DNA of 64,000 nucleotides from Gammaproteobacteria bacterium (GTDB lineage Bacteria > Pseudomonadota > Gammaproteobacteria > 21-64-14). The first letter of the stretch is position 1, and the number at the start of each line of letters is the position of its first letter. The notes below the pieces were generated by a model. The model ran no database searches. It saw nothing but the letters and a program-made list of their open reading frames with translations, and was not told the DNA's origin. Both the position numbers and the translations under genes were made by a program. This document shows, in pieces, positions 26,380-39,153 of the stretch. The stretch spans positions 38,499 to 102,498 of the forward strand of contig JALUXX010000060.1 of NCBI GenBank assembly GCA_027013145.1, in the 5' to 3' direction.

Positions 26380-27255
26380 TCACGGTTCCGGCGCGTTTCC
26401 CGATTCGGTGTCGGACCGCATCGCGCGCAGGCGCCGGTCGAGACCTGGGAGTCGGGGATCCAGGCGTGCCGCGGTGCGGTACGCGTCGCGGGCTGCCCCG
26501 CGATACCCGGCGCCGCGATAGGCGTCGCCCAGACGCATCCGGGCCTGTGCATCGTCCGCATCCAGGCCGACCTGCCGTCGCAGCCGTACGATGGCCTCGG
26601 CGTAGCGGCCGCGCTCGAGCAGGAATACGCCGTAATCCCCGAAGAGCTCCGCAGCGTGGCGCGGATCCCCGTCGCCGGCCTCGTGCTCGAGCGCGCGATA
26701 GATCGATTCGGCCGCCGCCGCGCGCCCGGCCCGCAGATGAATCCTGGCCATCAACAGGCGTCCGCGGAACGGATCACGGACCAGGATCTCCCGCGCCTCA
26801 CGACGTGCGTGCTCGATCCCGCCGCCGAGCAATGACGGCGCCTCGAGATAATAGCCGGCGAGCCCCATGCGCGCGTCGAGGTGGTCGGGATCCAGGGTCA
26901 CGGCGCGCTCCAACTCCCGCCGCACGCGCACCGCCAACCATGCCTGGCGCAGCGGGCCCGCGGTGCGTGCGTCCGCCCCGTAGGCCCGCGCCAGCCAGTA
27001 GTGCACCCGTGCCTCCTTCGGCGCGCGGCGGGCGGCGGTTTCGAGCTGCTTCAGGGCGCAGTCGAGGTCGCGTAGTTCGAAACAGGTCCGGCCGAGGTAG
27101 TAATGGAGATGCGGGGCATCCGGGTCCGCACGCAGTTCCGCCTCGAGCGCAGTGCGCGCCTGCGCGTACCGCCCCTGCTCGAACAGCGCGGCGCCCCCGG
27201 CCGCCGCGGCCGCGGCCGCGAGGAGCAACGAGCACCCAAGCACGCAACGGAGCAT
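26380..27255 (-). CDS. Exported tetratricopeptide-repeat protein
   Basis: Signal-like N-terminus; repeated TPR helices (HYYLGRT, HYWLARAYG, RMRLGDAY); YYLEAPSLLGGG. Confidence 0.8.
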   Translation of the reverse strand: MLRCVLGCSLLLAAAAAAAGGAALFEQGRYAQARTALEAELRADPDAPHLHYYLGRTCFELRDLDCALKQLETAARRAPKEARVHYWLARAYGADARTAGPLRQAWLAVRVRRELERAVTLDPDHLDARMGLAGYYLEAPSLLGGGIEHARREAREILVRDPFRGRLLMARIHLRAGRAAAAESIYRALEHEAGDGDPRHAAELFGDYGVFLLERGRYAEAIVRLRRQVGLDADDAQARMRLGDAYRGAGYRGAARDAYRTAARLDPRLPGLDRRLRAMRSDTESGNAPEP

Positions 27256-27369
27256 CCGCCCTTTCACGGCACGGAGCGTACCAGGGCGCACGCCGCAGAT
27301 CACCCCCGCGCGGGCGGGGATCGGGTGTGTGCCCCGGGGGCCGCAGGATGTCGGAGAGGGACTCGGGGC

Positions 27370-27777
27370 TCAGGCCGCCGGGGCCCCTGAGAGCGTCTCG
27401 ACGATCGGGCAGGGCTGCGCCGCGACACCGGTCCGGCAGGCGTCGATCAGGCGATCGAGCGTCTCCTGCATCGCTGCCAGATCGCGGATCTGGGCCTCGA
27501 TCTGGCGGCGCTTCTGCTCGGCGCGGGAGCGGACATCCGTGCAGCTTCCTTCGCTCAGTGACAGCAGCTCGGCGATCTCCTGAAGGTGGAACCCGAGTCG
27601 CTGGGCGCGCTTGATGAAGCGGATCCGGTCGGCGGCATCGCGCGGATAGTGCCGGTATCCGTGAGCCGGCTTGGCCGGTTCTTCCAGGAGCCCGATGCGC
27701 TGATAGTAGCGAACGGTCTCGACGTTGACGCCGGCGCTCCTGGCGAGCTGACCGATGGTGAAGGGTCTGGTGGTCAT
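27370..27777 (-). CDS. MerR-family metal-responsive regulator with three Hg-MerR-type Cys
   Basis: TIGQLARSAGVNVETVRYYQRIGLL HTH; FIKRAQRLGF; Cys in GSCTDV, DACRT and PCPIV. Confidence 0.9.
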   Translation of the reverse strand: MTTRPFTIGQLARSAGVNVETVRYYQRIGLLEEPAKPAHGYRHYPRDAADRIRFIKRAQRLGFHLQEIAELLSLSEGSCTDVRSRAEQKRRQIEAQIRDLAAMQETLDRLIDACRTGVAAQPCPIVETLSGAPAA

Positions 27778-27805
27778 GATGGCTGCACCCTTTGGTTGAT
27801 GGTGG

Positions 27806-28240
27806 TTAGATGTGGTCCGAATGCGCGGGGTCTGGGGGCGGGCGCCGGTCGAGGCTCAGCAGTGTGTCCTCGCGGCGCAGGACGAACAGCGCCACGAACG
27901 CTGCGAGCACCGGTACGCCGGCGATGAACAGGTGATTGCGGCCGAAGGGGGAGAGGAGTTCCCGGTACGTCGACAGCGTCGATACGGTGTGAAGCAGCAG
28001 TGCCAGTCCGTAGGTTCCGGTCTTCCACCAGCCGGCGAGAAAGGCCGCGCTCAAGAGCAGCTCGGCGACGCCGATGACGCGCGCGGCGGTGGCCGGGATG
28101 TGGAGCCCGTAGAAGTGGGAGAAGATATGGACCGTCCCCTGAGACTGGACCAGCTTGTCGACACTCCACAATGCCAGGAATACCCCCAGCCCCAGCCGCA
28201 ACACGAGCAGCGCGACGCGCAACCTTCCGGTTTCGTTCAT
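27806..28240 (-). CDS. DoxX-family membrane protein
   Basis: LRLGLGVFLALWSVDKL...GVAELL; four hydrophobic segments; GGAGG RBS. Confidence 0.8.
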   Translation of the reverse strand: MNETGRLRVALLVLRLGLGVFLALWSVDKLVQSQGTVHIFSHFYGLHIPATAARVIGVAELLLSAAFLAGWWKTGTYGLALLLHTVSTLSTYRELLSPFGRNHLFIAGVPVLAAFVALFVLRREDTLLSLDRRPPPDPAHSDHI

Positions 28241-28301
28241 GGCTTCCGCTCCTCCCGTCCCCGTGGGTGCCCGTAGGGCGAGTCCGGCGCCCGGACCAAT
28301 A

Positions 28302-28328
28302 GTCGGTCGGTGGGGGGTAGAACTTACA
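28302..28328 (-). promoter_or_regulatory. ECF-type promoter for doxX-merR-TPR
   Basis: Minus strand TGTAAG-N17-CGAC(TA), about 60 bp upstream of the DoxX ATG; the motif recurs four more times in the island. Confidence 0.75.
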
Positions 28329-28400
28329 TTCGCTCCGGGGCCATAAAAGATGATACAATTCAATATGTTAAATGTACGTTTTCGGTCGGGCACCCGCAGA

Positions 28401-28596
28401 GCGGGCCTCGGCCCGCCGACGACGCATCGTCCCAACGAGGTCGGCTCGATCCCACGGTGTCGGTCGGGCAAGCCCGGCCCTACCGACACGTCTCGCGCCG
28501 CCGCGGGTCGCCCGCAGGGCGGGCCTCGGCCCGCCGACGACGCATCCTTCCAACGGGGTCGGTTCGATCCCACGGTGTCGGCCCGGCAAGCCGGGA
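28401..28596. repeat. Two tandem REP doublets of the same family as the 14.7 kb cluster
   Basis: GCGGGCCTCGGCCCGCCGACGACGCATC...GATCCCACGGTGTCGG twice; the first unit ends CGGGCAAGCCCGGCCCTAC. Confidence 0.8.
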
Positions 28597-28624
28597 CCCT
28601 CGGCACCTTCCAGCCGCGGCGCGC

Positions 28625-28651
28625 TGTAAGAAAACGATCCGCCACGGCGAC
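28625..28651 (+). promoter_or_regulatory. ECF-type promoter for the Met-rich lipoprotein-cupredoxin pair
   Basis: TGTAAG-N17-CGAC(TC). Confidence 0.75.
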
Positions 28652-28829
28652 TCTTGCAGCGGGTTTCGTGCGCCCGTGTCCGGCTGCAGAGTCCGTACAC
28701 GCACAACGGTGTCGGCGCGCGGAACGATGATGATCGCGGTTCGCGGCGTTGCGTTGCGCGCCCTGGATCAGGTGCCGGCTACCGGACACCGCGCCCGCGT
28801 ATCCAACACCCTTGCAGGAGATCTCGCGC

Positions 28830-29861
28830 ATGAAACCGAAACTGACAATCGAAGACAGCCGTGTGCGGCGACGTCCGGGCCGGCGATACCTGCTCCTGGG
28901 CGTGCTCGCGGGAGCGACCGCATTGTCGGGTTGTGCCGCCACCCAGAATGCGATGATGAAGATGATGCCCGCGAGCATGAAGCAGAAGATGATGGCGAAG
29001 ATGACGCGGGAGATGCAGGCCCAGGATCCATGGAAGGGCTACCTCGCCGCCCATCGGGGCGAGACCAAGCCCCTCGGGCTGCTCGGCGGACCGGTCCGCG
29101 TGAGCATCCGACAGGAGGGCGGGGGCGTTTTCGTGGCACTGCCCGACTACCGGCGCCTGGACCCCGACGTCTTCGGCACGCCCAAGCTGCCGCGCGCCTA
29201 CGGCGGTACCCCGGGCATCAGCGGCGTGCCCCCCATGGCGCGCGCCGAGGACGACGGCCATTACACCAAGCTCAAGATGCTCAGCCCGTTCGGCGACAAG
29301 TACACGGTGATGGCGGACGGGCGCCTGAAGCTTTCCGCGCTCGATGCCACCGCGACCGACGCCGCGCGTACGCGCGACTGGACGCATATGACGGCGAGCT
29401 GGAAGGACAAGGCGGGCAACGTCTATGAAGTGAAGTGCTGCCGGATGATGGCCGCGCACGGGCTCGAGTTCCCGACCTTCGGCGGCGTGGCGACGAACCT
29501 CATCCTGCACGGGTCATCGCGGATCGGAACGCCGCTGATGCCGACGGAATACACCTACTTCGCTTTCTGGGGTGTCGGCAGCGTGATGAAGAACGGCGAG
29601 GTCGTCGATCCACATCGCCTGATCCACGGCATGCTCACGGAGTATGTGCGCACCACCGGTTACCGCCTGGGCTTCGATAAGGACATCACGCCCACGCGCC
29701 TGCAGTTCCATCTGATGGTGGCGCCGTTCAAGCCCGACATGAAGACGGGTCACTTCGACCCGGCCCCCGTGAAGACGGGGTTCCGCCTCCCGAACGGCAT
29801 GCCGCTGCCCTTCTGGCATGTCATGTTCGAGAACCTGAAGATCGAGGCGCGCCGTGGCTGA
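28830..29861 (+). CDS. Uncharacterised Met-rich, putative Tat-exported lipoprotein
   Basis: AGGAG RBS; RRRPGRRYLLL twin-Arg-like signal; LSGC lipobox; MMKMMPASMKQKMMAKMTREM; strong coding bias. Confidence 0.8.
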   Translation: MKPKLTIEDSRVRRRPGRRYLLLGVLAGATALSGCAATQNAMMKMMPASMKQKMMAKMTREMQAQDPWKGYLAAHRGETKPLGLLGGPVRVSIRQEGGGVFVALPDYRRLDPDVFGTPKLPRAYGGTPGISGVPPMARAEDDGHYTKLKMLSPFGDKYTVMADGRLKLSALDATATDAARTRDWTHMTASWKDKAGNVYEVKCCRMMAAHGLEFPTFGGVATNLILHGSSRIGTPLMPTEYTYFAFWGVGSVMKNGEVVDPHRLIHGMLTEYVRTTGYRLGFDKDITPTRLQFHLMVAPFKPDMKTGHFDPAPVKTGFRLPNGMPLPFWHVMFENLKIEARRG

Positions 29862-30294
29862 GCGGGCGGATAGCGTACGCGCCCGGGCGGGCGTACTGGC
29901 GATGGTCATCCTTGGGGCGGTTTTTGCCGGCGCGCCGTTCGGCGCGCCGGCAGCCGCCGTCGCGTCGGCGCCGGGCGCTGTGATCCGCCTGACGAACACG
30001 CTCGCCTTCGAGCCGAAGGCGGTGACCGTCCACGTGGGCCAGGCGGTCGAGTGGCGCAACGGCTCGCTGCTCGTGCATACGGTGACGGCCGACCCGGCCC
30101 TGGCGGCGAACGCGAAGGACGTCGCCCTCCCGGCCGGGGCCAAGCCGTTCAACTCCGGCGATCTGAAGCCGGGCGCGACCTATCGACATATCTTTGCGGT
30201 TCCGGGTCGCTACCGGTATTTCTGTATCCCGCACGAAGGCGCAGGTATGGTCGGGGAGGTGGTGGTGCTCCCCGCGCAAGTCGGGGTCCGCTGA
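29854..30294 (+). CDS. Plastocyanin/azurin-family blue copper protein
   Basis: Signal peptide; FEPKAVTV..G..VEW.N, VHTVT and YFCIPHEGAGMVG (His/Cys/His/Met type 1 ligands). Confidence 0.93.
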   Translation: MAERADSVRARAGVLAMVILGAVFAGAPFGAPAAAVASAPGAVIRLTNTLAFEPKAVTVHVGQAVEWRNGSLLVHTVTADPALAANAKDVALPAGAKPFNSGDLKPGATYRHIFAVPGRYRYFCIPHEGAGMVGEVVVLPAQVGVR

Positions 30295-30446
30295 AGGTGG
30301 ATCGATGGGTATGGTCGCGTCCGCTCCGCCGTCGTCGCACCCGAAGCGTCGATTGGTCGGATGGGGCGACGAGCAGTGCCGGACGACGTCCACACAACGA
30401 AACATATAGAACGGTTAGCACTACGCGTAGTTGGACGACGTTCAAA

Positions 30447-30464
30447 CTGTGACTCGATTCACAG
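30447..30464. promoter_or_regulatory. CRP-family binding site
   Basis: CTGTGA-CTCGAT-TCACAG, a perfect TGTGA-N6-TCACA, about 290 bp upstream of the multicopper pair. Confidence 0.6.
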
Positions 30465-30749: not shown

Positions 30750-31751
30750 ATGGAGAGACGGAAATTCCTGAAGATCGGGAGCGCGGGAATCGCCGGTGCG
30801 CTTGTTGCTGGTTCCGGGCTGATAACCTGGAGTAAGCGGGCACACGCAGCGACGATCAACAAGACCTTCTACATCACCGATGGAACTCTTGTTCAGCCCG
30901 ACGGGGTCGGCGTCTATTTCCGAGGGTTCAGTGACGCGGCCAACGGCCTGAACGTGCCTGGAGCTGCCCTAATCGTACAGCAGGGGGACACCGTAAACAT
31001 TACGGTGGTGAACACCCTGTCTACGACGCACAGTTTCGTGATCGACGGCGTTGTGGATAGCGGGCCCATTGCAGGAGGAACCCAGGCAGTGGTGAGCTTT
31101 TCCGCGGAAACGCCTGGGACCTACGCGTACTATGACTCTCAAAATCCGCCCTACAATCGCCTGTTGGGCTTGCACGGGGGGCTCGCGGTAATGCCTTCCG
31201 GTTCCACGAATACGCTGTATGCCGGGAGCCCGACGTTCGTCAAGCAGTATTTCTGGGTGTTCAATGATATTGACCCGGTATGGCATAACGCCCTTGCGGG
31301 GGGTGCGAACCCCACCACACCGTTTTTTCCGCGTTACTTTACGATAAACGGCCTGAGTTCGCGTCCGCCGGGTGCGCCCGGGAACGGTGATCCCTCGGTG
31401 GACGCAAACGCCGACCCGCGGTCGCTCCTCGTCGGCAGTATCGGGGACCGCTCTCTGGTGCGTATGATCAATATGAGCCTATGCACGCATTCCATGCATG
31501 TGCATGCCAACCATATGGAGTGGCTTACGCTTAATGGGGCCATTCGGTCGGATATCTGGAAGAAGGACATTCTCCCACTGTACGGCAACATGGGGAGGGT
31601 GGATGCCATTTACCCGTTTGAGGCTCCACCAGACGCGTATCCGCCGGTGACGACCGGAAACTATCCGATGCATCTGCATGATGAGATGACTCAGACGGCC
31701 GGGGGAGGGCTGTATCTGTTCGGTACCATGACCGAGATTCACTTCGTTTGA
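30750..31751 (+). CDS. Tat-exported two-domain multicopper-oxidase-like protein A (copper motifs only in domain 2)
   Basis: MERRKFLK Tat signal ending AHA; cupredoxin patterns (VQQGDTVNITVVN, PGTY); HSMHVH and MHLH in domain 2. Confidence 0.85.
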   Translation: MERRKFLKIGSAGIAGALVAGSGLITWSKRAHAATINKTFYITDGTLVQPDGVGVYFRGFSDAANGLNVPGAALIVQQGDTVNITVVNTLSTTHSFVIDGVVDSGPIAGGTQAVVSFSAETPGTYAYYDSQNPPYNRLLGLHGGLAVMPSGSTNTLYAGSPTFVKQYFWVFNDIDPVWHNALAGGANPTTPFFPRYFTINGLSSRPPGAPGNGDPSVDANADPRSLLVGSIGDRSLVRMINMSLCTHSMHVHANHMEWLTLNGAIRSDIWKKDILPLYGNMGRVDAIYPFEAPPDAYPPVTTGNYPMHLHDEMTQTAGGGLYLFGTMTEIHFV

Positions 31752-31778
31752 CCACCGAAAAAAGCGAGGAGGGAACTC

Positions 31779-32768
31779 ATGAGCAGCGGAGGAATGTGCG
31801 GCGGCGTCGCCAACGCCTGCTATGTATATCCCGGCGCGCCGGCGACACCCGGAATTGTTACCCCGGACATTTCTTTCAGTCGTGGTATCTATATGGACGG
31901 TTCCATCACCATGGATGACGGTAAGGTCATTACCATCTGGGGATTTACGGACTTGGCTGTGAACAACGGAATGGCCAGACCGTTTCCCTCACCGACGATT
32001 CGGGTGACGGAAGGGCAGATCGTGCATACGAGTCTTGCTGTTCCCGGCGATATGTGGGTGCACACGATCCATCACCATGGTATCGAGCCCGCGTGGCAAA
32101 ATGACGGTGTCGGACATATTTCCTGGGATGTCCAGGGAACTTACATCTACCAATGGCGGCCGCAGCATGCGGGTACTTATTTTTATCATTGCCATACCAA
32201 TACCGTGTTGCACGCGGAAATGGGGATGTACGGCGCCTTGATCGTAGACCCGGTGCCGGATCCGAATGACCCGCCGGGCACCAAGCGGGTATTCGCCGGC
32301 GGACCGGCATACGACGTGGAGGCTGTGTGGGCATGCGACGAGATCGCCTCGTCATGGCACACACTGTGTTGGGACGCGGGGACCTGCGGGGGAGATGCGG
32401 GTCTGAACCGGTTGGAGGCGGATTATTTCATCATTACCGGCGTCGACGGTGCGAAGTCCGCCCTGACCGATCCGCGGGTGGCGGTCAACATGAGTTTGGG
32501 TCAGACTCTTCTGGTCCGTTATATCGCGGCGGGATATTACCCGCAACGGATTACGTTTGGCGGACTTACCGCTACCGTTGTGGCGTCGGATGGTCGGCCT
32601 CTCCCGAATCCCGTGTCGATGACTTCGATCCATGCGGTGGCCGCGGAGCGCTATGACTGCATATTTACCCCGACGGCGACGGGGGTCTATGACGTAACAG
32701 TCGAATTTCTCGACTGGGTGACAGGGAACACGCTGGGCACTGCGCGCACGCGCATCACGGTGTCCTGA
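31779..32768 (+). CDS. Two-domain multicopper-oxidase-like protein B (copper motifs only in domain 1, no signal peptide)
   Basis: GAGGAGG RBS; FPSPTIRVTEG, HTIHHHG, GTYFYHCHTNTVLHAEMGMYG and VVASDGRPL...AERYD. Confidence 0.9.
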   Translation: MSSGGMCGGVANACYVYPGAPATPGIVTPDISFSRGIYMDGSITMDDGKVITIWGFTDLAVNNGMARPFPSPTIRVTEGQIVHTSLAVPGDMWVHTIHHHGIEPAWQNDGVGHISWDVQGTYIYQWRPQHAGTYFYHCHTNTVLHAEMGMYGALIVDPVPDPNDPPGTKRVFAGGPAYDVEAVWACDEIASSWHTLCWDAGTCGGDAGLNRLEADYFIITGVDGAKSALTDPRVAVNMSLGQTLLVRYIAAGYYPQRITFGGLTATVVASDGRPLPNPVSMTSIHAVAAERYDCIFTPTATGVYDVTVEFLDWVTGNTLGTARTRITVS

Positions 32769-33012: not shown

Positions 33013-33039
33013 TGTAAGAACGAGCGGAGTCGAGGCGAC
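33013..33039 (+). promoter_or_regulatory. ECF-type promoter upstream of the TVP38-oxidoreductase gene
   Basis: TGTAAG-N17-CGAC(CA). Confidence 0.7.
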
Positions 33040-33379: not shown

Positions 33380-35512
33380 ATGACAAAAGGACGAATCCTG
33401 CTTCTGCTGCTGGTCGCCGCGGCGATCTACGCGTTCTTCGCCTTCCATCTCGGGGACTACCTGAGTCTGGAATACCTCAAGTCGCGGCAGGCCGACGTGC
33501 AGGCGTATTTCGTGCAGCATCCGTGGTCCACGGGCGGGGCGTTCGCGGCCGGATACATCGCGGTGACAGCCCTGTCGCTGCCGGGGGCGACGATCATGAC
33601 GCTCGCGGCGGGGGCGGTCTTCGGGTTGCTGTGGGGTACGGTCATCGTCTCGTTCGCATCCAGTATCGGTGCGACGCTGGCGTTTCTGGTTTCGCGGTTT
33701 CTCCTGCGCGATGCCGTCCAGCGGCGGTTCGGCGCCAGCCTCGCCGCCGTCAATGCCGGCGTGGAGCGGGACGGGGCCTTCTATCTATTTACCTTGCGCC
33801 TGGTGCCGGCGTTTCCGTTCTTCGTGATCAACCTGGTCATGGGGCTGACGCCGATGAGTGCCCGCACGTTCTATCTGGTAAGCCAGATCGGGATGCTCGC
33901 GGGGACCATCGTGTACGTGAATGCGGGTACGCAGCTCGCGGCGATCCGTTCGCTGGACGGCCTTCTGTCGCCTGGGCTGATCGCCTCGTTCACGCTGCTC
34001 GGCCTCTTCCCCCTGCTGGCGAAGAAGCTCGTCGACGCCCTGCGCCGGCGCAAGGTCTACCGCGGTCATCGCCGGCCGCGGCGCTTCGATCGCAACCTGG
34101 TCGTGATCGGCGCCGGGTCCGCCGGACTGGTCGCGGCCTATATCGGCGCTGCGGTGCGGGCGCGGGTGACGCTCATCGAGCGCGACCGCATGGGCGGCGA
34201 CTGCCTCAATACCGGTTGCGTGCCGTCCAAGGCGCTGATCAGCACGACGCGCCTGCTCGACCGGATGCGCCGGGCGCGGGAGTATGGTCTGCGCTCGGCC
34301 GCCGCGGAGTTCGACTTCGCGGAGGTGATGGAACGGGTCCAGCGGGTCATCCGTCAGGTCGCCCCGCACGACTCGGTCGAGCGCTACACAGCCCTCGGGG
34401 TCGAGTGCGTACAGGGACAGGCGCGCATCACCTCCCCCTTCACCGTCGAGGTCGGCGGGCGCACCCTAAACACGCGTAACATCGTGATCGCCACCGGCGG
34501 CCGCCCGCACGTCCCTGCGATCCCGGGCCTGCGCGAGGCCGGTTTCCGGACCTCGGACACGATCTGGGACCTGCGCAGCCGGCCCGGTACGCTGGCCGTG
34601 CTGGGCGGGGGACCGATCGGAAGCGAGCTGGCGCAGTGCTTCGCGCGCCTGGGCAGCCGCGTCGTCCAGATCCACCGGCGCGACCGACTGCTCCCGCGCG
34701 AGGACCCGGAGATCGCGCGGCTGGTCATGGACCGCTTCCGCGACGAGGGTATCGACCTGCGTCTCGAACACGATCCGCGCGAGGTGCGGATCGAGGACGG
34801 GCGCAAGGTGATCGTGTGCGCCCATGGCGGCGGGGAGGTCCGCATCCCCTGCGACGAGATCCTGGTCGCGACCGGGCGGCAGGCCAACACGGAAGGACTG
34901 GGGCTCGAAGAACTCGGTATCCCTTTGACCGACCGGGGGACGGTGGCGGTCGACGAGTACCTGCGCACCTCCTTCCCGAACATCTACGCCTGTGGTGACG
35001 TCGCCGGGCCCTATCAGTTCACCCACACCGCTGCCCATCAGGCCTGGTACGCGGCGGTCAACGCCTTGTTCGGCCGGTTCCGCCGCTTCAAGGCGGACTA
35101 TTCGGTCATCCCCTGGGCCACGTTCACCGAGCCGGAGGTGGCGCGGGTCGGTCTCAACGAGCAGGACGCCAAAGCGCAGGGGGTCGTCTACGAGGTGACG
35201 ACCTTCCCCCTGGAGGAACTCGACCGGGCGATCGCCGACGGCGAGGCCCACGGCCTGGTCAAGGTGCTCACCGTCCCGGGGCGCGATCGCATCCTCGGGG
35301 TGACCATCGCCGGGGAGCACGCCGGCGACGTCATCGTCGAGTTCATCGCCGCGATGCGCCACGGGCTCGGCCTGAACAAGATCCTCTCGACCATCCACAT
35401 CTACCCCACACTCGCCGAAGCCAACAAGTACGCGGCGGGAGCGTGGAAACGCGCCCACGCCCCGGAACGGGTGCTGGGCTGGCTCGCGCGTTACCACCGC
35501 TGGCAGTTATAA
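33380..35512 (+). CDS. TVP38/TMEM64 (DedA-like) membrane domain fused to a pyridine nucleotide-disulfide oxidoreductase (LpdA/MerA-like)
   Basis: ALSLPGA and LRLVPAFPFFVINL in the membrane part; GAGSAG, GGDCLNTGCVPSK, GGGPIG, ACGDV and HIYPTLAE in the enzyme part. Confidence 0.92.
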   Translation: MTKGRILLLLLVAAAIYAFFAFHLGDYLSLEYLKSRQADVQAYFVQHPWSTGGAFAAGYIAVTALSLPGATIMTLAAGAVFGLLWGTVIVSFASSIGATLAFLVSRFLLRDAVQRRFGASLAAVNAGVERDGAFYLFTLRLVPAFPFFVINLVMGLTPMSARTFYLVSQIGMLAGTIVYVNAGTQLAAIRSLDGLLSPGLIASFTLLGLFPLLAKKLVDALRRRKVYRGHRRPRRFDRNLVVIGAGSAGLVAAYIGAAVRARVTLIERDRMGGDCLNTGCVPSKALISTTRLLDRMRRAREYGLRSAAAEFDFAEVMERVQRVIRQVAPHDSVERYTALGVECVQGQARITSPFTVEVGGRTLNTRNIVIATGGRPHVPAIPGLREAGFRTSDTIWDLRSRPGTLAVLGGGPIGSELAQCFARLGSRVVQIHRRDRLLPREDPEIARLVMDRFRDEGIDLRLEHDPREVRIEDGRKVIVCAHGGGEVRIPCDEILVATGRQANTEGLGLEELGIPLTDRGTVAVDEYLRTSFPNIYACGDVAGPYQFTHTAAHQAWYAAVNALFGRFRRFKADYSVIPWATFTEPEVARVGLNEQDAKAQGVVYEVTTFPLEELDRAIADGEAHGLVKVLTVPGRDRILGVTIAGEHAGDVIVEFIAAMRHGLGLNKILSTIHIYPTLAEANKYAAGAWKRAHAPERVLGWLARYHRWQL

Positions 35513-35546
35513 GGGCGCAGGCGGTCCCGGGCGGAAGTTCGCGAAG

Positions 35547-35828
35547 CTACGGCTCGCGGGTGTCGAGGGAGCGGTGCAGGTGTTTCCGCGCCGCCTCGTC
35601 GAGGGCCTTGCGGCGGGCGGCTTCGCGGATCCAGCGCAACTGGTGCGCATAGCGGCGACAGGCCCCGCAGATCAAGAGGTGAATGCGCAGCAGCAGCCAT
35701 TGCCAGCGCGGCAGCCGGTGCTCGCACTCCTCGGACAGCAGGCGTGCGGCATCCCGGCACACGAGGCCCGGCATCGGCAGGCGGCGGCGCGGCCGCGGTT
35801 GCCCGGACGGAGGTGCGCGGTCGTTCAT
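35547..35828 (-). CDS. zf-HC2 zinc-finger anti-sigma-like protein (copy 2)
   Basis: CRDAARLLS...LRIHLLICGACRRY (HxxxCxxC); ATGA overlap with the DUF2063 gene. Confidence 0.85.
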   Translation of the reverse strand: MNDRAPPSGQPRPRRRLPMPGLVCRDAARLLSEECEHRLPRWQWLLLRIHLLICGACRRYAHQLRWIREAARRKALDEAARKHLHRSLDTREP

Positions 35829-36598
35829 GTCAGCTCCCATCCGGTCAGGTTCGCCGCGGCCACCTGGGCGTGCAGCCAGGCGCTGACGTCGGCGTCGGGA
35901 TCGACCGCGAGCGCCCGGTCGCAGGCGGCGCCGAAGGGTTCTCCGCGCTGCAGGGCGGCCAGCAGTTCGAACTGGCCCGGGGTGACCGTGGCGATCTCGA
36001 CGTGTGCGCCCGGGCGCGCGACGACGAGGCAGTCGGCGCCCGCGGCGAGATCGACGCGCTCGTCCGCCGCCGCCGGGTCGGTGCAGATCCGGCGGATCCG
36101 GAACAGGGGGTAGGGCGAGCGCAGCAGCCGCAGCGCGGGGTGTACCTCGAAGCGGATGCGCGGGTAGTCCGCCGGGTCGACGGCGGCCAGTGCGGTGAAA
36201 TCGCCGGGTTCCGGATCGGGGGCGAGCAATGATTCGTGGCAGGCCCAATCGAGGCGCGCGGCGTCGGGCAGATAGACGAGCGACGCGGCGGGCGCGAAGT
36301 CCCGGAGGAATTCGGGAAATCCGGCGCCGTAGTCGTTGAGGTCGCCGGAGACCGACGGGGTCCGACGCGCGTAGCACTCCGCGGCGTGGTCGAAGAACTC
36401 GGGGCCGACGAGGGCGTGCACGGTCTCGAAGACATCGGCCAGGGCGTCGCGGAGATTGCCGAGGACGTTGTTCCGGTAGACCGAAAGGCGGTCGGGGGCG
36501 GGGATGCCGCGTGCGCGGATGAGGCCGGCGACCGCGGCCTCGTCCCCTTCGAAGACGGCGCGCGCGAACGCGCGCTGCAGTTCACGCAGAGACGGCAC
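35825..36598 (-). CDS. bufC: DUF2063 MNIO partner protein (BufC/HvfC-like)
   Basis: LRELQRAFARAV, RLSVYRNN, SGDLNDYGAGFPEFL and YLPDAARLDWA motifs; follows DUF692. Confidence 0.87.
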   Translation of the reverse strand: MPSLRELQRAFARAVFEGDEAAVAGLIRARGIPAPDRLSVYRNNVLGNLRDALADVFETVHALVGPEFFDHAAECYARRTPSVSGDLNDYGAGFPEFLRDFAPAASLVYLPDAARLDWACHESLLAPDPEPGDFTALAAVDPADYPRIRFEVHPALRLLRSPYPLFRIRRICTDPAAADERVDLAAGADCLVVARPGAHVEIATVTPGQFELLAALQRGEPFGAACDRALAVDPDADVSAWLHAQVAAANLTGWELT

Positions 36599-37454
36599 GG
36601 CTCGGCTCCAGGAGGCGGTCGGCACGGCGGGCCTCGCCGAGCAGGGTCTCGATGGGCGGGATGTCGGCGTCCCACTCGATCAGGACGGGGACGGGCCCGA
36701 AGCGTTCGATCGCGCGGTGGTACAGGTCCCAGACGGGCTCGGCCACCGGGCGGCTGTGGGTGTCGATGAGCAGTTCGCGGCCGGCGATGCGCTCGCGGCT
36801 GTGACCGGCCAGATGGATCTCGCGCACGCGCGCCAGCGGGATCGCCTCCAGGTAGGCGAGGGGGTCGAAACCATGGTTGACCGCATTTACGTAGAGGTTG
36901 TTGACGTCGAGCAGGGCGCCGCAGTCGGCGCGCTCGAGGACCTCGACGAGGAATTCCCACTCGGGGAATTCCGACTGGGTGTACTCGAGATAGCTCGAGA
37001 CGTTTTCGATCAGTATCTCGCGCCCGAGGTAGTCCCGGACGCGACGGATGCGGTCGGCGACGTGGATCACGGCGGCACGCGTGCACGGCAATGGGAGCAG
37101 GTCGTGCAGGTAGCGCCCGTCGACGGAACTCCAGGACAGATGCTCGGAGACCAAGCCGGGTTCGAGCCGGCGCACGCGTTCGCGCAGTCGTGCGAGGTGG
37201 CGGGCGTCGAGCGGGTCGGCGGAGCCGAGCGAGAGGCCGACGCCGTGGAAGCTCAGCGGATAGTCGGCGCGGATGCGCTCGACGTCGTGCAACGGGAAGC
37301 CGCCGGCGCAGAAGACGTTTTCGCTGTGGACCTCGAACCAAGCCACCGGCGGGTGTCGGTCGAGGATCTCCTTATAATGAGGCGCGCGCAGGCCGACCCC
37401 GGCCCGTGCCGGGATCGGCCCGCGGCCTGCCTCGCGCGTCGGCGCCCCGCTCAT
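36582..37454 (-). CDS. bufB: DUF692 multinuclear non-heme iron oxidase (MNIO, BufB-like)
   Basis: GVGLRAPH, FEVHSEN, HGVGLSLGS, SEHLSW, IENVSSY, LLDVNNLYVN, EIHLAGH, IDTH and LIEWD motifs. Confidence 0.96.
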   Translation of the reverse strand: MSGAPTREAGRGPIPARAGVGLRAPHYKEILDRHPPVAWFEVHSENVFCAGGFPLHDVERIRADYPLSFHGVGLSLGSADPLDARHLARLRERVRRLEPGLVSEHLSWSSVDGRYLHDLLPLPCTRAAVIHVADRIRRVRDYLGREILIENVSSYLEYTQSEFPEWEFLVEVLERADCGALLDVNNLYVNAVNHGFDPLAYLEAIPLARVREIHLAGHSRERIAGRELLIDTHSRPVAEPVWDLYHRAIERFGPVPVLIEWDADIPPIETLLGEARRADRLLEPSRAVSA

Positions 37455-37463
37455 GGGCCCCCG

Positions 37464-37727
37464 CTACTTGCCGGGGGTCGTGCTGCCGCCCGCAATCTTG
37501 GCGCACACCCCTTTGGGGAGCAGGACGAAGGAGTCGGGGTCCCGGCTCTTGCTCGCCTGCCCCTTGCAGGCATGGTCGGCGCTGGCGCAGTCGTTCTGGT
37601 GCGCCTTGTTGATGCCGTAACATTTCTGCATCGCCGGGGCGGCCGTCGCGGTGGTGGCGAGGCCGACGGCGGACAGGGCCACCAGGGCGCCGATGGCGCT
37701 GCGTACAACGGTGTGGGTGGTTCGCAT
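37464..37727 (-). CDS. bufA: Bufferin-type (DUF2282) RiPP precursor, copy 2
   Basis: Signal peptide, then KCYGINKAHQNDC...HACKGQ...LPKGVCAKIAGG (four Cys); AGGAG RBS. Confidence 0.92.
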   Translation of the reverse strand: MRTTHTVVRSAIGALVALSAVGLATTATAAPAMQKCYGINKAHQNDCASADHACKGQASKSRDPDSFVLLPKGVCAKIAGGSTTPGK

Positions 37728-37798
37728 CTCGTGCTCTCCTGTGCAGTTGCGATTACGATGACGAGGAGCGGTGATCGGCCGGCCGGCGCCTGCGCGGG

Positions 37799-38074
37799 TC
37801 ACCCGTGTGCACCGCCGGGGGTGAGACTGCCGCCCTCGATGCGTTTGCAGGCCCCTCTGGGAACCAGGACGAAGGCGTCGGGGTCGCGGTCCTTGGTGGC
37901 CTGGCCGGCGCAGGCGTTGCTGCCGGTGGCGCAGTCGTTCATGTGGGCCTTGTTGATGCCGTAGCACGGGACCATCGGCGGCGGTTTCGCCGCGGCCTGC
38001 TGCGCGAACGCAACGGTCCCGGACGCCAGCAGGGCCGCGAGTGCGGTGCGGGAGACCAGACGACTGTCCTTCAT
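37799..38074 (-). CDS. bufA: Bufferin-type (DUF2282) RiPP precursor, copy 1
   Basis: Signal peptide, then PCYGINKAHMNDC...NACAGQ...VPRGACKRIEGG (four Cys); GGAGG RBS. Confidence 0.92.
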   Translation of the reverse strand: MKDSRLVSRTALAALLASGTVAFAQQAAAKPPPMVPCYGINKAHMNDCATGSNACAGQATKDRDPDAFVLVPRGACKRIEGGSLTPGGAHG

Positions 38075-38133
38075 GACGTACCTCCGGGGAAAAGGGGCGG
38101 TTGGAGACACTTGCGGAAGAAACCGCCCTTGAA

Positions 38134-38159
38134 GTAAGTTGGGTTTCAAACTCGCCGAC
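38134..38159 (+). promoter_or_regulatory. ECF-type autoregulatory promoter of the sigma/anti-sigma pair
   Basis: GTAAG-N17-CGAC(AC). Confidence 0.7.
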
Positions 38160-38190
38160 ACGGAGTCCGCCCGCGCGGCTTGGCGGATTA

Positions 38191-38216
38191 GTCGGGGGGG
38201 CTTGGGAATCCTTACA
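38191..38216 (-). promoter_or_regulatory. ECF-type promoter of the bufferin operon
   Basis: Minus strand TGTAAG-N16-CGAC(TAA). Confidence 0.75.
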
Positions 38217-38305
38217 AGAAGGGCCGACCCGCAAGAAGAGCCGACGGGCGAAGCGCGCTGGCGGATCGGCGATACGGTCGGCGCGACGACGGGAGCGGAG
38301 GGCGG

Positions 38306-38881
38306 ATGGATCTGAAGCCGGAGGAGTGGCTGGAGGCGCACGGCGACGCCTTGTATCGCTATGCCCTGGTCCGGACCGGGCAGCGCGATGTGGCCGAAGA
38401 CCTGGTGCAGGAGACGCTGCTCGCCGCGTGGCGCGGGCGCGACGGGTTCCGCGCCGCCTCCGGCGAGCGTACCTGGCTCTTCGGCATCATGAAGCATAAG
38501 ATCGACGACCACTTCCGGCGCACGGCGCGCACGGGCGGCGTGCTGCCGGCGCCGGACGAGGATACGGCGGTCGACGAGGAATCGCTGGAGTTCGGCGAGG
38601 ACGGGAGCTGGCGCACCCGGCCCGGGGTCTGGGGCGGCGACCCCCTGGGTCAGGCCGAGGCCGAGGAGTTCTGGCAGGAACTGCACCGGTGCCTGGAGCG
38701 GCTGCCCGTGCGTCTGCGCGAAGGTTTCGTGCTACGCGAGCTGTCGGGGCTGGAGAGCCGTCAGATCTGCGAGGTGCTGGAGATCTCGGAAAACAACCTC
38801 TACGTGCTGTTGCATCGGGCGCGCCTGCGCGTGCGCTCGTGCCTCGAGCGGAGCTGGTTCGGCGGCGGGGAGCGGCCGTGA
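38306..38881 (+). CDS. ECF sigma-70 family factor
   Basis: AEDLVQETLLAAW, RTWLFGIMKHKIDD and FVLRELSGL...ICEVLEISENNLYVLLHRARLR. Confidence 0.95.
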   Translation: MDLKPEEWLEAHGDALYRYALVRTGQRDVAEDLVQETLLAAWRGRDGFRAASGERTWLFGIMKHKIDDHFRRTARTGGVLPAPDEDTAVDEESLEFGEDGSWRTRPGVWGGDPLGQAEAEEFWQELHRCLERLPVRLREGFVLRELSGLESRQICEVLEISENNLYVLLHRARLRVRSCLERSWFGGGERP

Positions 38882-39153
38882 TCGGACCGGACTGCCACGA
38901 CGTGGCCTACCTGCTCTCGCGTGCGCGCGAGTCGCGGCTTACCCGGCGCGAGCGCTGGGCGGTACGCATGCACCTGCTGATCTGCGTCTATTGCCGCCGC
39001 TACGCGCGTCAGCTGCGCTGGCTCGAGCAGGCGCTCGCGCGCGTTCGGGGCTCGGGCCGTACCGGCCGTCTCGACGAGGAGGCGCGTGCGCGGATCCGCG
39101 CGCGCCTGGATACGCGCGAGGAAACACGCCCCAATCCGCCGGCGGACCGTTAG
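38878..39153 (+). CDS. zf-HC2 anti-sigma factor (cognate, copy 1)
   Basis: GTGA overlap with the sigma gene; CHDVAYLLS...VRMHLLICVYCRRY. Confidence 0.88.
   Translation: MIGPDCHDVAYLLSRARESRLTRRERWAVRMHLLICVYCRRYARQLRWLEQALARVRGSGRTGRLDEEARARIRARLDTREETRPNPPADR

What the first reader, a model, noticed from the sequence alone, without database searches (positions are those of the whole stretch)
26380..39153. A 13-kb ECF regulon readable from sequence: five GTAAG-N16/17-CGAC promoters link bufferin genes to uncharacterised copper/thiol genes
Seen: the same bipartite motif sits correctly oriented upstream of five units: doxX-merR-TPR (28302-28328, minus), Met-rich lipoprotein-cupredoxin (28625-28651, plus), TVP38-oxidoreductase (33013-33039, plus), sigma/anti-sigma (38134-38159, plus) and bufA-bufA-bufB-bufC-antisigma (38191-38216, minus). 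Other GTAAG/CTTAC hits I checked by eye lack CGAC at this spacing. Known: bufferin/MNIO operons are ECF-controlled metal-stress systems, and from memory the motif resembles the Neisseria sigmaE/MseR promoter (GTAAG...CGTC). Inference: an extended bufferin system with extra envelope copper and redox components that I do not recognise from described operons.
Basis: partly seen in the sequence, partly recalled or inferred. Interest (0 to 1): 0.85.

Follow-up and report, generated by a model that had tools for sequence, protein, structure and literature searches.

The report
Stress sigma regulon around bufferin genes
One alternative sigma factor appears to switch on a copper-binding peptide (bufferin) operon together with several little-known envelope copper and redox genes through a shared promoter motif, which gives those unknown genes a first functional context.

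Summary
GTAAG-N16/17-CGAC occurs exactly five times in the window, at the stated places (shuffles mean 0.47). That is 5 of 24 hits in the 3.28-Mb genome.

Four sites are well supported: upstream of bufA1, doxX-merR, the Met-rich lipoprotein-cupredoxin pair, and TVP38-oxidoreductase. A weight matrix built from 125 sites beside sigma homologues in 80 distant loci ranks them 1st, 4th, 5th and joint 9th genome-wide. A sister-genus genome carries the motif before the same four units, in otherwise diverged spacers. The strict motif is found 6 and 13 times in the two sigma-bearing genomes, but 1 and 0 times in two congeners in which the sigma was not found.

The fifth site, before the sigma gene, scores under 8 bits and is not conserved.

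The system is of the Neisseria sigmaE/MseR kind: a ZAS peptide anti-sigma, the same promoter geometry, and a bufferin-type cluster. Its regulon is larger, and it has two anti-sigma paralogues. Outside the window it reaches a small RNA, a radical-SAM/methyltransferase pair, DUF6789-DUF3179, a second DoxX and a PHO4 transporter.

The lipoprotein belongs to an unnamed, highly conserved family predicted to bind its cupredoxin neighbour. No transcript data exist.

The parts
38306..38881 (+). ECF sigma factor (191 aa), sigma2 + sigma4 only
   Evidence: Pfam Sigma70_r2 55.3 bits and Sigma70_r4_2 51 bits. Best NCBIfam is TIGR02943 at 155 bits, under its cut-off of 162.2. It is the only strong copy of this type in the genome.
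38878..39153 (+). ZAS1: small soluble zinc-finger anti-sigma; its start overlaps the sigma stop by 4 nt
   Evidence: NF052368 'antisigmaE' 60 bits against a cut-off of 50. Pfam zf-HC2 20.5 bits, under its cut-off of 22.2. H-x3-C-x2-C and an upstream Cys are read in the translation.
38191..38215 (-). P_bufA: TGTAAGGATTC-N-CGACTAAT, 16-nt spacer; best site in the genome
   Evidence: PWM 34.1 bits, rank 1 of all genome positions. The orthologous site in L006 at 4336(+) scores 28.4 bits, and the motif blocks align between the two genomes. It lies about 110 nt before the bufA1 start.
37799..38074 (-). bufA1, bufferin precursor (DUF2282, signal peptide, 4 Cys)
   Evidence: PF10048 77 bits; sequence.
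37464..37727 (-). bufA2, second bufferin precursor (DUF2282, 4 Cys)
   Evidence: PF10048 73.1 bits; sequence.
36582..37454 (-). bufB, MNIO (DUF692) modification enzyme
   Evidence: PF05114 367.1 bits.
35825..36625 (-). bufC, DUF2063 partner protein
   Evidence: PF09836 86.4 bits.
35547..35828 (-). ZAS2: second anti-sigma paralogue, last gene of the bufferin operon; its start overlaps the bufC stop
   Evidence: NF052368 57.7 bits against a cut-off of 50. 48% identical to ZAS1. Also present after bufC in L006. These two are the only copies over the cut-off in the genome.
33014..33039 (+). P_tvp38: TGTAAGAACGA-N-CGACCATA, 17-nt spacer
   Evidence: PWM 18.9 bits. L006 has a site at 11811(-), 20.4 bits, 94 nt before the orthologous gene, but at a non-aligned position. 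Here the leader is about 334 nt.
33380..35512 (+). VTT/TVP38(DedA)-pyridine-nucleotide-disulfide oxidoreductase fusion (710 aa)
   Evidence: VTT_dom 78.8 bits, Pyr_redox_2 218.5 bits, Pyr_redox_dim 104.8 bits. NF004991 520 bits; MerA 410 bits, under its cut-off of 454. A full fusion sits beside sigma homologues in 4 of 80 distant loci and in L008. In L043 and L045 the motif lies directly upstream.
28626..28651 (+). P_lipo: TGTAAGAAAAC-N-CGACTCTT, 17-nt spacer
   Evidence: PWM 23.3 bits. The L006 site at 13756(-) scores 21.2 bits and has the same -35 flank, TGTAAGAAAAC.
28830..29861 (+). Met-rich lipoprotein of an unnamed conserved family ('MetLipo'): lipobox, M/K/Q-rich N-terminal stretch, beta-barrel body
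   Evidence: No Pfam or NCBIfam hit. 457 homologues at E<=1e-3; the listed 120 are 57-84% identical, apart from the window's own record. Invariant His, Met and Trp residues in 31 sequences. AF2 model pLDDT 72.3; Foldseek found nothing at E<=1e-3 and the best VIA Z was 6.6.
29854..30294 (+). Plastocyanin-like cupredoxin with signal peptide; overlaps the lipoprotein gene by 8 nt
   Evidence: PF00127 53.5 bits. His, Cys, His and Met copper ligands are invariant in 28 sequences. It lies downstream of the lipoprotein gene in 59 of 70 metagenome loci with room for it. Predicted complex ipSAE 0.75 against a best control of 0.00.
30750..31751 (+). Multicopper-oxidase-like protein 1 with twin-arginine signal, in a lower-GC stretch
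   Evidence: Cu-oxidase_3 26.5 bits, Cu-oxidase_2 23.1 bits. GC is 55-62% here. Absent from L006. No motif of its own, so regulon membership is open.
31779..32768 (+). Multicopper-oxidase-like protein 2, no signal peptide
   Evidence: Cu-oxidase_3 43.6 bits, Cu-oxidase_2 32.3 bits, Cu-oxidase 23.9 bits. Absent from L006.
28302..28327 (-). P_doxX: TGTAAGTTCTA-N-CGACTATT, 17-nt spacer
   Evidence: PWM 23.9 bits. The L006 site at 14041(+) scores 22.1 bits, before the orthologous gene. It lies about 55 nt before the start codon.
27806..28240 (-). DoxX/MauE-like membrane protein (144 aa)
   Evidence: PF07681 27.7 bits against a cut-off of 23.6; MauE 21.6 bits.
27370..27777 (-). MerR-family metal-sensing regulator with Cys79, Cys114 and Cys123
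   Evidence: MerR_1 67.6 bits. TIGR02051 MerR 150.6 bits against a cut-off of 150.85. Cys positions counted on the translation.
26380..27255 (-). Secreted TPR protein, possibly the last gene of the doxX-merR unit
   Evidence: TPR_19 75.1 bits and other TPR families. Same gene order in L006, but there the gap after merR is 320 nt, so co-transcription is uncertain.
38134..38159 (+). Core-motif match before the sigma gene; probably not a promoter of this class
   Evidence: PWM under 8 bits. In L006 the aligned bases read CTGAG and no CGAC follows. It lies inside the predicted bufA leader.
28388..28623 (.). Two tandem 118-nt repeats with a REP-like palindrome, between P_doxX and P_lipo
   Evidence: The two copies are 81% identical.

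Best explanation
The window encodes an ECF sigma factor of the Neisseria sigmaE / Haemophilus RpoE2 kind, with two small cytoplasmic zinc-finger (ZAS) anti-sigma paralogues.

Inferred from the family: at rest the anti-sigmas hold the sigma. Thiol-reactive stress (oxidants such as HOCl or peroxide, or thiophilic metals such as Cu or Hg) disturbs the Zn-Cys site and frees it.

Shown by sequence statistics and conservation, not by transcripts: the freed sigma reads promoters of the form TGTAAG(G/A)(A/T)(A/T)T, then 16-17 nt counted from GTAAG, then CGAC(T/C)AA.

In the window four such promoters drive:
(i) bufA1-bufA2-bufB-bufC-ZAS2
(ii) doxX-like-merR(-TPR)
(iii) the Met-rich lipoprotein-cupredoxin pair, perhaps reading on into two multicopper-oxidase-like genes
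(iv) the TVP38/DedA-flavin disulfide reductase fusion

Because ZAS2 is the last gene of a sigma-dependent operon, induction makes more anti-sigma. This is a negative feedback (inferred). The sigma-ZAS1 operon itself has no convincing promoter of this class, so positive autoregulation is doubtful.

Elsewhere in the genome the same motif, conserved in the sister genus, precedes:
- a ~140-nt small RNA
- a radical-SAM(DUF3641)-methyltransferase pair
- DUF6789-DUF3179
- a canonical DoxX
- a PHO4-type transporter

Taken together this is an envelope defence against copper and thiol stress. Secreted bufferins buffer copper, and the predicted lipoprotein-cupredoxin complex handles copper or electrons in the periplasm. 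A membrane-anchored NAD(P)H reductase and a second metal sensor (MerR) complete the set. These functions are inferred.
For: - Motif count: 5 in the window against 0.47 expected; 5 of 24 in the genome.
- Independent model: in 80 loci around sigma homologues (36-49% identity, many phyla) the core motif occurs 125 times with full flanks, against 17.1 +/- 2.4 in Markov-1 simulations. Its flanks are biased: T before GTAAG in 100 of 125, and A two and three bases after CGAC in 83 and 97 of 125.
- A matrix from those sites ranks the window's four sites 1st, 4th, 5th and joint 9th among all positions of the genome.
- The syntenic locus of a sister genus (sigma 76% identical) has sites of 20.4-28.4 bits before the same four units. 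The intergenic DNA otherwise aligns poorly: 106 of 312, 233 of 725 and 171 of 481 identical columns.
- Strict pattern TGTAAG-N16/17-CGACT: 6 hits in G000 and 13 in G003 (reversed-pattern control 1 each). The congeners G001 and G002, where the sigma was not found at E<=1e-20, have 1 and 0 (controls 0 and 1).
- Five sites outside the window lie before orthologous targets in both genomes. Their gene families recur downstream of sites in distant phyla. Of 74 first genes: sigma 10, PNDR 4 (VTT 3), radical SAM/DUF3641 4, DoxX 3, DUF3179 2.
- Literature, read as passages: Neisseria sigmaE promoters have the same geometry and a mapped start 6 nt after the -10. The gonococcal sigma operon holds DoxX, a periplasmic protein, DUF692, DUF2063, sigma and anti-sigma. 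Haemophilus RpoE2 with its 67-aa ZAS partner activates target promoters in E. coli reporters.
- Both anti-sigmas pass NF052368.
- Lipoprotein-cupredoxin: adjacent in 59 of 70 loci. Predicted complex ipSAE 0.75, best of 3 controls 0.00. That mark was reached by 58 of 80 solved complexes and 2 of 110 mismatched pairs. The three runs agree in at least 98% of contacts, and partner pLDDT is at least 91. My own alignments were used, so these counts hold only roughly.
Against: - There is no transcript, start-site or binding data for this organism; everything is comparative.
- The bare motif is not enriched genome-wide (24 hits, about the chance number).
- Site 3 is about 334 nt from its gene, in a lower-GC stretch, and does not align with the sister-genus site. 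It could have arrived with the inserted oxidase genes or serve something else.
- The window's sites use a 17-nt spacer in 3 of the 4 good sites. By contrast, 106 of the 125 distant sites use 16.
- The sigma scores just under the TIGR02943 cut-off (155 against 162.2). It was never compared directly with the Neisseria or Haemophilus proteins.
- The sigma's own site fails the matrix and the conservation test, so how the sigma gene is expressed is unknown. The sigma-70 scan found no promoter in 26000-39500.
- G001 keeps a good site before the radical-SAM gene although its sigma was not found.
- The inducing signal and all protein functions are inferred.
Confidence: 0.8

Rival explanations
1. All five sites, including 38134-38159, are promoters. 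The sigma-ZAS1 operon would then be positively autoregulated, face to face with P_bufA.
For: The core motif is present and correctly oriented, 147 nt before the sigma start. Autoregulation is common in the family: 10 of 74 first genes downstream of sites in distant loci are the sigma itself. The Neisseria operon is autoregulated.
Against: The score is under 8 bits with the family matrix, because the flanks do not fit (A before GTAAG; CGACACGG). In the sister genus the aligned block keeps GTTGGGxTTCAAACT but reads CTGAG for GTAAG and lacks CGAC, and no site of 8 bits or more lies before its sigma gene. The site lies inside the predicted bufA leader, so the conserved block may serve that transcript.
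Confidence: 0.2
2. The motif cluster is chance or a by-product of repeats, and the units have unrelated promoters.
For: The genome-wide count of the bare motif equals chance. REP-like repeats carry the core motif at three other places, and such repeats lie between two of the sites.
Against: 0 of 100 shuffles reach 5. The spacers of the five sites are unrelated in sequence. Flanks match a matrix built from other phyla. Sites are kept before orthologous genes in diverged spacers. The motif count tracks presence of the sigma.
Confidence: 0.04
3. The sites are real, but they are read by another regulator: a different ECF sigma of the genome, or the neighbouring MerR protein binding a bipartite operator.
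For: The genome has further ECF-like genes, seen as five weaker TIGR02943 matches. A MerR gene sits in one of the units.
Against: The motif follows THIS sigma family across 80 loci from many phyla, most of which lack MerR (2 of 80 have it). Its geometry equals mapped sigmaE promoters. MerR operators are dyads inside a sigma-70 promoter (general knowledge), whereas these sites are asymmetric and always oriented towards the gene.
Confidence: 0.06

Closest known systems
Neisseria meningitidis/gonorrhoeae sigmaE (RpoE, NMB2144/NGO1944) with anti-sigma MseR (NMB2145); placed in ECF group 13 by PMC7907618, a group merged into ECF293 in the 2021 re-classification
   Same: - ECF sigma with a small ZAS peptide anti-sigma encoded just downstream.
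- Promoter -35 GTAAG(G)(T/A)T and a -10 starting CG(T/A)C, at the same distance.
- Control of a DoxX / periplasmic peptide / DUF692 / DUF2063 cluster.
- A sigma-dependent small RNA exists in Neisseria and is predicted here.
   Different: - In Neisseria everything is one autoregulated operon, and the only other direct target found was msrAB. Here sigma-ZAS1 and the bufferin genes are divergent units.
- A second anti-sigma closes the bufferin operon here.
- The -10 reads CGAC, not CGTC.
- At least eight further units carry the motif.
- No msrAB site was looked for specifically; none appeared among the 29 matrix hits above 14 bits, of which I inspected the downstream genes for seven outside the window.
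- No direct sequence comparison was made.
Haemophilus influenzae RpoE2 / HrsE (PMC7907618)
   Same: Same sigma and anti-sigma type. The regulon mixes periplasmic repair or redox enzymes with a DoxX-containing cluster. The system responds to HOCl, H2O2 and paraquat, and there is little autoregulation of rpoE2 (passages).
   Different: Its targets are msrAB, a DMT transporter and mtsZ. No cupredoxin, lipoprotein or TVP38-reductase was reported in the passages read.
Caulobacter SigF/NrsF control of buf1 and buf2 (PMC11626156, PMC3511200)
   Same: An ECF sigma controls DUF2282-MNIO-DUF2063 bufferin operons as part of a copper stress regulon.
   Different: The anti-sigma there is the membrane protein NrsF (PF06532), not a ZAS peptide. 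No NrsF hit appeared among the 18 window proteins scanned. The published survey lists sigma and NrsF genes in Buf1 clusters and says other conserved genes are very rare.
DedA (COG0398)-pyridine nucleotide-disulfide oxidoreductase fusions
   Same: PMC10127716 names this as the commonest domain fusion of COG0398 DedA proteins. The window protein has that architecture.
   Different: No function or regulator is given there. Here the fusion is a recurrent target of one ECF family.

Membership tests
Neisseria-type sigmaE/ZAS anti-sigma system (ECF13 -> ECF293) | Sigma with regions 2 and 4 only | tested here: met
   Sigma70_r2 and Sigma70_r4_2 are the sigma-region Pfam domains found, in a 191-aa protein.
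Neisseria-type sigmaE/ZAS anti-sigma system (ECF13 -> ECF293) | Small soluble anti-sigma with the ZAS motif (C/H-x23-26-H-x3-C-x2-C), co-transcribed downstream | tested here: met
   The motif is read in both ZAS1 and ZAS2. NF052368 scores 60 and 57.7 bits against a cut-off of 50. The ZAS1 start overlaps the sigma stop.
Neisseria-type sigmaE/ZAS anti-sigma system (ECF13 -> ECF293) | Target promoter GTMAGBWTT-N12/13-CGTCTAAH | tested here: met
   The geometry is the same. The -35 fits, and the -10 differs at one base (CGAC) in the window and in 108 of 125 distant sites.
Neisseria-type sigmaE/ZAS anti-sigma system (ECF13 -> ECF293) | Sequence membership of the sigma in the group (ECF Hub model, or direct comparison with NMB2144) | not tested
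   No Neisseria sequence or ECF Hub model was on hand. The nearest NCBIfam model, TIGR02943, scores 155 bits, under its cut-off of 162.2. Whether TIGR02943 corresponds to ECF13 is not known to me.
Neisseria-type sigmaE/ZAS anti-sigma system (ECF13 -> ECF293) | Sigma-dependent transcription and anti-sigma binding | not testable with these tools
   No RNA run was listed.
Bufferin (Buf1) biosynthetic cluster | DUF2282 precursor with Sec signal peptide and four conserved Cys | tested here: met
   Two precursors, PF10048 77 and 73.1 bits. Each has four Cys in the translations.
Bufferin (Buf1) biosynthetic cluster | MNIO (PF05114) followed by a DUF2063 partner | tested here: met
   367.1 and 86.4 bits, adjacent and on the same strand.
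Bufferin (Buf1) biosynthetic cluster | DoxX (BufD) gene in the cluster | tested here: not met
   There is none in the operon. A weak DoxX/MauE-like gene lies 10 kb away and a clear DoxX (61.1 bits) lies on another contig, each behind its own motif. DoxX is not required for bufferin function in Caulobacter.
Mercury-responsive MerR (TIGR02051) | Score over the equivalog cut-off, and the three metal-binding Cys | tested here: inconclusive
   150.6 bits against a cut-off of 150.85. Cys79, Cys114 and Cys123 are present. That these are the Hg ligands of Tn21 MerR is recalled. There is no mer transport or reductase operon nearby.
Mercuric reductase MerA (TIGR02053) | Score over the cut-off, and the C-terminal Cys pair | tested here: not met
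   410 bits against a cut-off of 454.45. The C-terminus read has no Cys pair (this feature is recalled). The best model is the generic FAD oxidoreductase NF004991.
SigF/NrsF bufferin regulation (Caulobacter) | NrsF (PF06532) anti-sigma | tested here: not met
   No PF06532 hit in the 18 proteins scanned.

The most novel reading that the evidence does not exclude
The Met-rich lipoprotein and its cupredoxin would form a previously undescribed, widely distributed periplasmic copper-redox complex. The cupredoxin would dock through its copper-ligand loop. In this lineage the complex has been recruited to a thiol-sensing ECF regulon, together with bufferins, a DedA-flavin reductase and a small RNA. 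The circuit would also replace positive autoregulation with a second anti-sigma encoded at the end of a target operon. That could be a functional equivalent of the promoter-like motif found inside the sigma coding sequence of many relatives.
Probability: 0.4. Interest if true: 0.65.

Novelty: new variant of a known kind. Interest (0 to 1): 0.55.

Why it matters
Bufferins were described only in 2024, and the published survey found almost no conserved accessory genes beyond the core and the sigma/NrsF pair. Here the promoter motif of the other sigma type, the ZAS type, is specific enough to read a regulon from sequence alone.

That places several families without known function in one copper/thiol stress response:
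- an unnamed lipoprotein family with 457 detected homologues
- DedA-reductase fusions
- DUF3641 radical-SAM proteins
- DUF6789
- DUF3179

The motif also offers a way to predict regulons for the more than 2,400 relatives of this sigma. The two-anti-sigma layout is a testable circuit design.

The limits are that the sigma type and its link to bufferin-like clusters are already known, and nothing here has been measured.

Tried and rejected
- RNA evidence: the look-up of sequencing runs for window:28250-38249, kind rna, listed no RNA holder.
- Rfam: no match at E<=0.1 in 26000-39500. Only two sub-threshold rows appeared for the small-RNA loci.
- Sigma-70 scan: 0 promoter-like sites in 26000-39500, against 1.5 expected.
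- BufC against PDB sequences: no hit at E<=1e-3. The link to NGO1945 therefore rests on the shared Pfam family and the paper.
- Lipoprotein fold: Foldseek found no match at E<=1e-3. VIA-align found only generic small beta-barrels, best Z 6.6, rmsd 4.1 over 121 residues. No fold family is claimed. The Atlas named no family; one cluster that also carries Cupredoxin_1 (78% of members) aligns at TM 0.56, which is a lead for a fused form only.
- Lipoprotein family in 401 genomes of the phylum: 21 have matches at E<=1e-30, mostly one family at 34-45% identity.
- Sigma search in 41 relatives: 5 genomes have it, G000 included; it was not found in the two congeners (97% and 96% complete).
- The idea that the MerR protein has an operator in the doxX/lipoprotein spacer: only weak inverted repeats were seen, so it was not pursued.
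- The ECF293 group description and promoter logo sit in supplements of PMC7826278, which were closed. They may already show this motif.
- The Caulobacter SigF promoter was not retrieved, because one search failed on a term format and was not repeated for that paper.
- The downstream-gene tally uses a crude rule (longest ORF starting within 350 nt). It left out the 25 of 100 sites that lie inside the sigma gene, and counted once an ORF that follows two sites.

Full report
**1. Observation**

Shuffles give 0.47 on average, and none of 100 reaches five. The region is about 70% G+C, apart from a 55-62% stretch at 30.3-33.4 kb.

- TPR 26380-27255(-), MerR 27370-27777(-), DoxX/MauE-like 27806-28240(-)
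- A lipoprotein with a lipobox and a Met/Lys/Gln-rich stretch, with no family, 28830-29861(+), overlapping a plastocyanin-like cupredoxin 29854-30294(+)
- A VTT(TVP38/DedA)-flavin disulfide reductase fusion 33380-35512(+)
- bufA1 37799-38074, bufA2 37464-37727, bufB (MNIO) 36582-37454 and bufC (DUF2063) 35825-36625, followed by a small zinc-finger protein 35547-35828, all on the minus strand
- An ECF sigma 38306-38881(+), with a second small zinc-finger protein 38878-39153(+)

**2. Is it more than chance?**

The bare motif occurs 24 times in the 3.28-Mb genome, which is what chance predicts. Three of the hits outside the window lie in a REP-like repeat. So the motif alone is weak evidence. The evidence comes from clustering (5 of 24 hits within 10 kb) and from three independent tests.

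(a) Related sigma genes. An alignment of five sigma homologues retrieved 80 loci from many phyla, 36-49% identical.
- The core motif (CGAC or CGTC) occurs there 125 times with complete flanks, against 17.1 +/- 2.4 in Markov-1 simulations.
- The flanks are strongly biased. The consensus is TGTAAG(G)(A/T)(A/T)T ... CGAC(T/C)AA, with a 16-nt spacer in 106 sites and 17 nt in 19.
- A weight matrix from these sites, which owes nothing to the window's genome, was run over the whole genome. The bufA site is the best position in the genome (34.1 bits). The doxX site (23.9) is 4th, the lipoprotein site (23.3) 5th and the TVP38 site (18.9) joint 9th.
- The site before the sigma gene does not reach 8 bits.

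(b) A sister genus. G003 (sigma 76% identical) has the whole locus in the same order, without the two oxidase-like genes.
- It carries sites of 28.4, 22.1, 21.2 and 20.4 bits before bufA1, doxX, the lipoprotein gene and the TVP38 fusion.
- The spacers otherwise align poorly.
- Before its sigma gene there is no site. The window's fifth site aligns to a conserved block, GTTGGGxTTCAAACT, but GTAAG reads CTGAG there and no CGAC follows.

(c) Presence and absence. The strict pattern TGTAAG-N16/17-CGACT is found 6 times in G000 and 13 times in G003, with 1 hit each for the reversed control. It is found once and not at all in the two congeners where the sigma was not found (97% and 96% complete).

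**3. What the system is**

Both small zinc-finger proteins pass NCBIfam NF052368 'antisigmaE' (60 and 57.7 bits, cut-off 50). Both show the H-x3-C-x2-C motif with an upstream Cys. They are 48% identical to each other and are the only such genes in the genome. Neither has a membrane segment by eye.

The sigma is nearest to TIGR02943, at 155 bits against a cut-off of 162.2.

Passages of Hopman et al. 2010 (PMC2893595) give the neisserial sigmaE consensus. The -35 is GTMAGBWTT and the -10 is CGTCTAAH, 12-13 nt apart, with a mapped start 6 nt after the -10. That is the same geometry as GTAAG-N16/17-CGxC.

Das et al. (PMC2954202, passages) list the gonococcal operon as DoxX, a periplasmic protein, DUF692, DUF2063, the ECF sigma and NGO1943.

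Nasreen et al. (PMC7907618, passages) show the Haemophilus counterpart RpoE2 with a 67-aa ZAS partner, place both in ECF group 13, and report induction by HOCl, H2O2 and paraquat. ECF13 was merged into ECF293 (PMC7826278). The group description is in supplements I could not open.

So the window's system is of this known kind.

**4. How it differs**

- Sigma-ZAS1 and the bufferin genes are divergent units rather than one operon.
- A second anti-sigma, ZAS2, is translationally coupled to the end of the sigma-dependent bufferin operon, here and in G003. This should give negative feedback.
- The sigma operon lacks a convincing promoter of its own class.
- In the distant loci, 25 of 100 TGTAAG sites lie inside the sigma coding sequence, about 100 nt before the anti-sigma gene. 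The window's sigma has no such site. I suggest, as inference only, that an internal promoter and a second anti-sigma gene are two routes to the same feedback.

**5. The regulon**

Inside the window there are four units. Outside it, the matrix and the G003 comparison add five more.

| Place in G000 | Score (bits) | What follows | Support |
|---|---|---|---|
| C42:25185(-) | 32.1 (2nd best in the genome) | About 140 nt that fold into three hairpins ending in an intrinsic terminator (-71.8 kcal/mol, z -6.0) |. Orthologue with its own promoter and a conserved C-rich loop in G003. No Rfam family. |
| C16:257891(-) | 26.1 | Radical-SAM/DUF3641 gene, then a methyltransferase | |
| C9:10853(+) | 21.5 | DUF6789, then DUF3179 | |
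| C3:20530(+) | 18.9 | PHO4-family transporter | |
| C24:3932(+) | 15.2 | A clear DoxX gene | |

G003 has strict-motif sites before the orthologues of all five.

Among the first genes after 74 sites in the distant loci, the same families recur: sigma 10, PNDR 4 (VTT 3), radical SAM/DUF3641 4, DoxX 3, DUF3179 2. The regulon is therefore a mosaic of accessory modules. Only 15 of the 80 distant sigma loci hold an MNIO gene, and 4 hold a full TVP38-reductase fusion.

**6. The unknown lipoprotein**

- It has 457 detected homologues. The 120 listed are 57-84% identical, apart from the window's own record. None carries a Pfam domain, and every name a source gives is 'hypothetical protein'.
- Thirty-one aligned sequences show invariant His75, His227, His266, His294 and His330, invariant Met237, Met268 and Met332, and a Met-rich N-terminal stretch in many members.
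- The AF2 model (pLDDT 72.3) is a beta-barrel with N-terminal helices. No solved structure matches convincingly.
- In 80 metagenome loci a cupredoxin gene follows it in 61 cases, and in 59 of the 70 with at least 600 nt of room. The cupredoxin keeps His, Cys, His and Met type-1 copper ligands in 28 of 28 sequences.
- The complex prediction gives ipSAE 0.75, against 0.00 for the best of three controls. That mark was reached by 58 of 80 solved complexes and 2 of 110 mismatched pairs. The runs agree in at least 98% of contacts, and partner pLDDT is at least 91. My own alignments were used, so these counts hold only roughly. The model supports binding; it does not show it.
- The interface uses cupredoxin residues 125-131, the loop that carries the copper ligands.
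- This pair is mostly independent of the sigma and of bufferins. Only 4 of 64 loci with enough upstream DNA have the motif, 2 of 80 have a close sigma homologue, and 1 of 80 has an MNIO gene. In this lineage it was recruited by gaining a promoter.

**7. Other members**

- The reductase domain scores best with a generic FAD oxidoreductase model. It is below the cut-offs for MerA, lipoamide dehydrogenase and RclA. It has the CxxxxC active-site pair but no C-terminal Cys pair.
- Todor et al. (PMC10127716, passages) note this as the commonest COG0398 DedA fusion, without assigning a function.
- The MerR protein sits 0.25 bits under the mercury-MerR cut-off and has Cys79, Cys114 and Cys123. Its target is unknown.
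- The oxidase-like pair has no motif of its own and is absent from G003. It lies in lower-GC DNA that also contains site 3 and the long TVP38 leader. It may be read through from the lipoprotein promoter, or it may be a recent insertion. A homologous pair sits beside a sigma homologue in locus L081.

**8. Mechanism, with what is shown and what is inferred**

Shown by computation:
- the motif, its conservation and its link to this sigma family
- the gene families
- the predicted lipoprotein-cupredoxin interface

Taken from the literature on relatives:
- ZAS peptides bind and inhibit the sigma, and oxidants induce the system
- bufferins chelate copper (PMC11626156)

Inferred:
- thiol or metal stress releases the sigma here
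- the four window units and five outside units are induced together
- ZAS2 closes a feedback loop
- the envelope proteins act on copper or redox damage

**9. Verdict**

This is a real, sequence-readable ECF regulon of a known sigma type, with an unusually rich and partly uncharacterised membership. Four of the five proposed promoters stand, and the fifth probably does not. It is a new variant of a known kind, of moderate interest mainly for the functional context it gives to unknown families. There are no expression data.

Noticed in passing
G000:C42 about 25010-25186 (-) (locus L194); orthologue G003:C11:15872-16075 (L198/L211): Putative sigma-dependent small RNA of about 140 nt. It follows the second-best promoter match in the genome and folds into three hairpins with an intrinsic terminator. 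A run of seven C in a loop is conserved in the sister genus. No Rfam family matches. It parallels the sigmaE-dependent sRNA reported in Neisseria.
   Followed up: partly
L010-L089, about 445 nt into the sigma genes (e.g. L014:10452, L022:10473, L074:10446): In the distant loci, 25 of 100 TGTAAG-N16/17-CG[AT]C sites lie inside the sigma coding sequence (region 4, coding C-K-x-L...T/S-x-T-N), about 100 nt before the anti-sigma gene. This could be an internal sigma-dependent promoter for the anti-sigma, or only a consequence of protein conservation. The window's sigma lacks it.
   Followed up: partly
window 30300-33400: A stretch of 55-62% G+C in a ~70% genome holds two multicopper-oxidase-like genes. 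The first has a twin-arginine signal and the second has no signal, which suggests export as a pair. The whole stretch is missing from the syntenic locus of the sister genus. A homologous gene pair lies next to a sigma homologue in L081.
   Followed up: partly
window 28388-28623; also G000 C5:97336, C53:151158, C16:228000: Two tandem 118-nt repeats (81% identical) contain a REP-like palindrome, GGCGGGCCTCGGCCCGCC. Copies of this unit elsewhere in the genome happen to carry the core motif and account for 3 of the 19 hits outside the window.
   Followed up: partly
window 38137-38152 and L006 about 4380-4400: A block, GTTGGGxTTCAAACT with a small palindrome GTTTCAAAC, is conserved in the predicted bufA leader of both genomes, although the surrounding spacer has diverged. 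It may be a leader element or an operator.
   Followed up: no
G001:C45:15336-15362 (L210): A congener in which the sigma was not found still has a strict-motif site 42 nt before the orthologous radical-SAM/DUF3641 gene. Either the sigma is on unassembled DNA (the genome is 97% complete) or the site has outlived it.
   Followed up: no
window 23609-26319: Squalene-hopene cyclase (647 aa), followed by an overlapping PNP_UDP_1 phosphorylase-family gene, lies just upstream of the regulon. These are hopanoid-type genes with no motif, and the order is kept in the sister genus.
   Followed up: no
ESM Atlas cluster (structure row 3): A cluster of about 370-aa proteins, 78% of which carry Cupredoxin_1, aligns to the lipoprotein body at TM 0.56. 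This may be a fused lipoprotein-cupredoxin form that would back the predicted complex.
   Followed up: no
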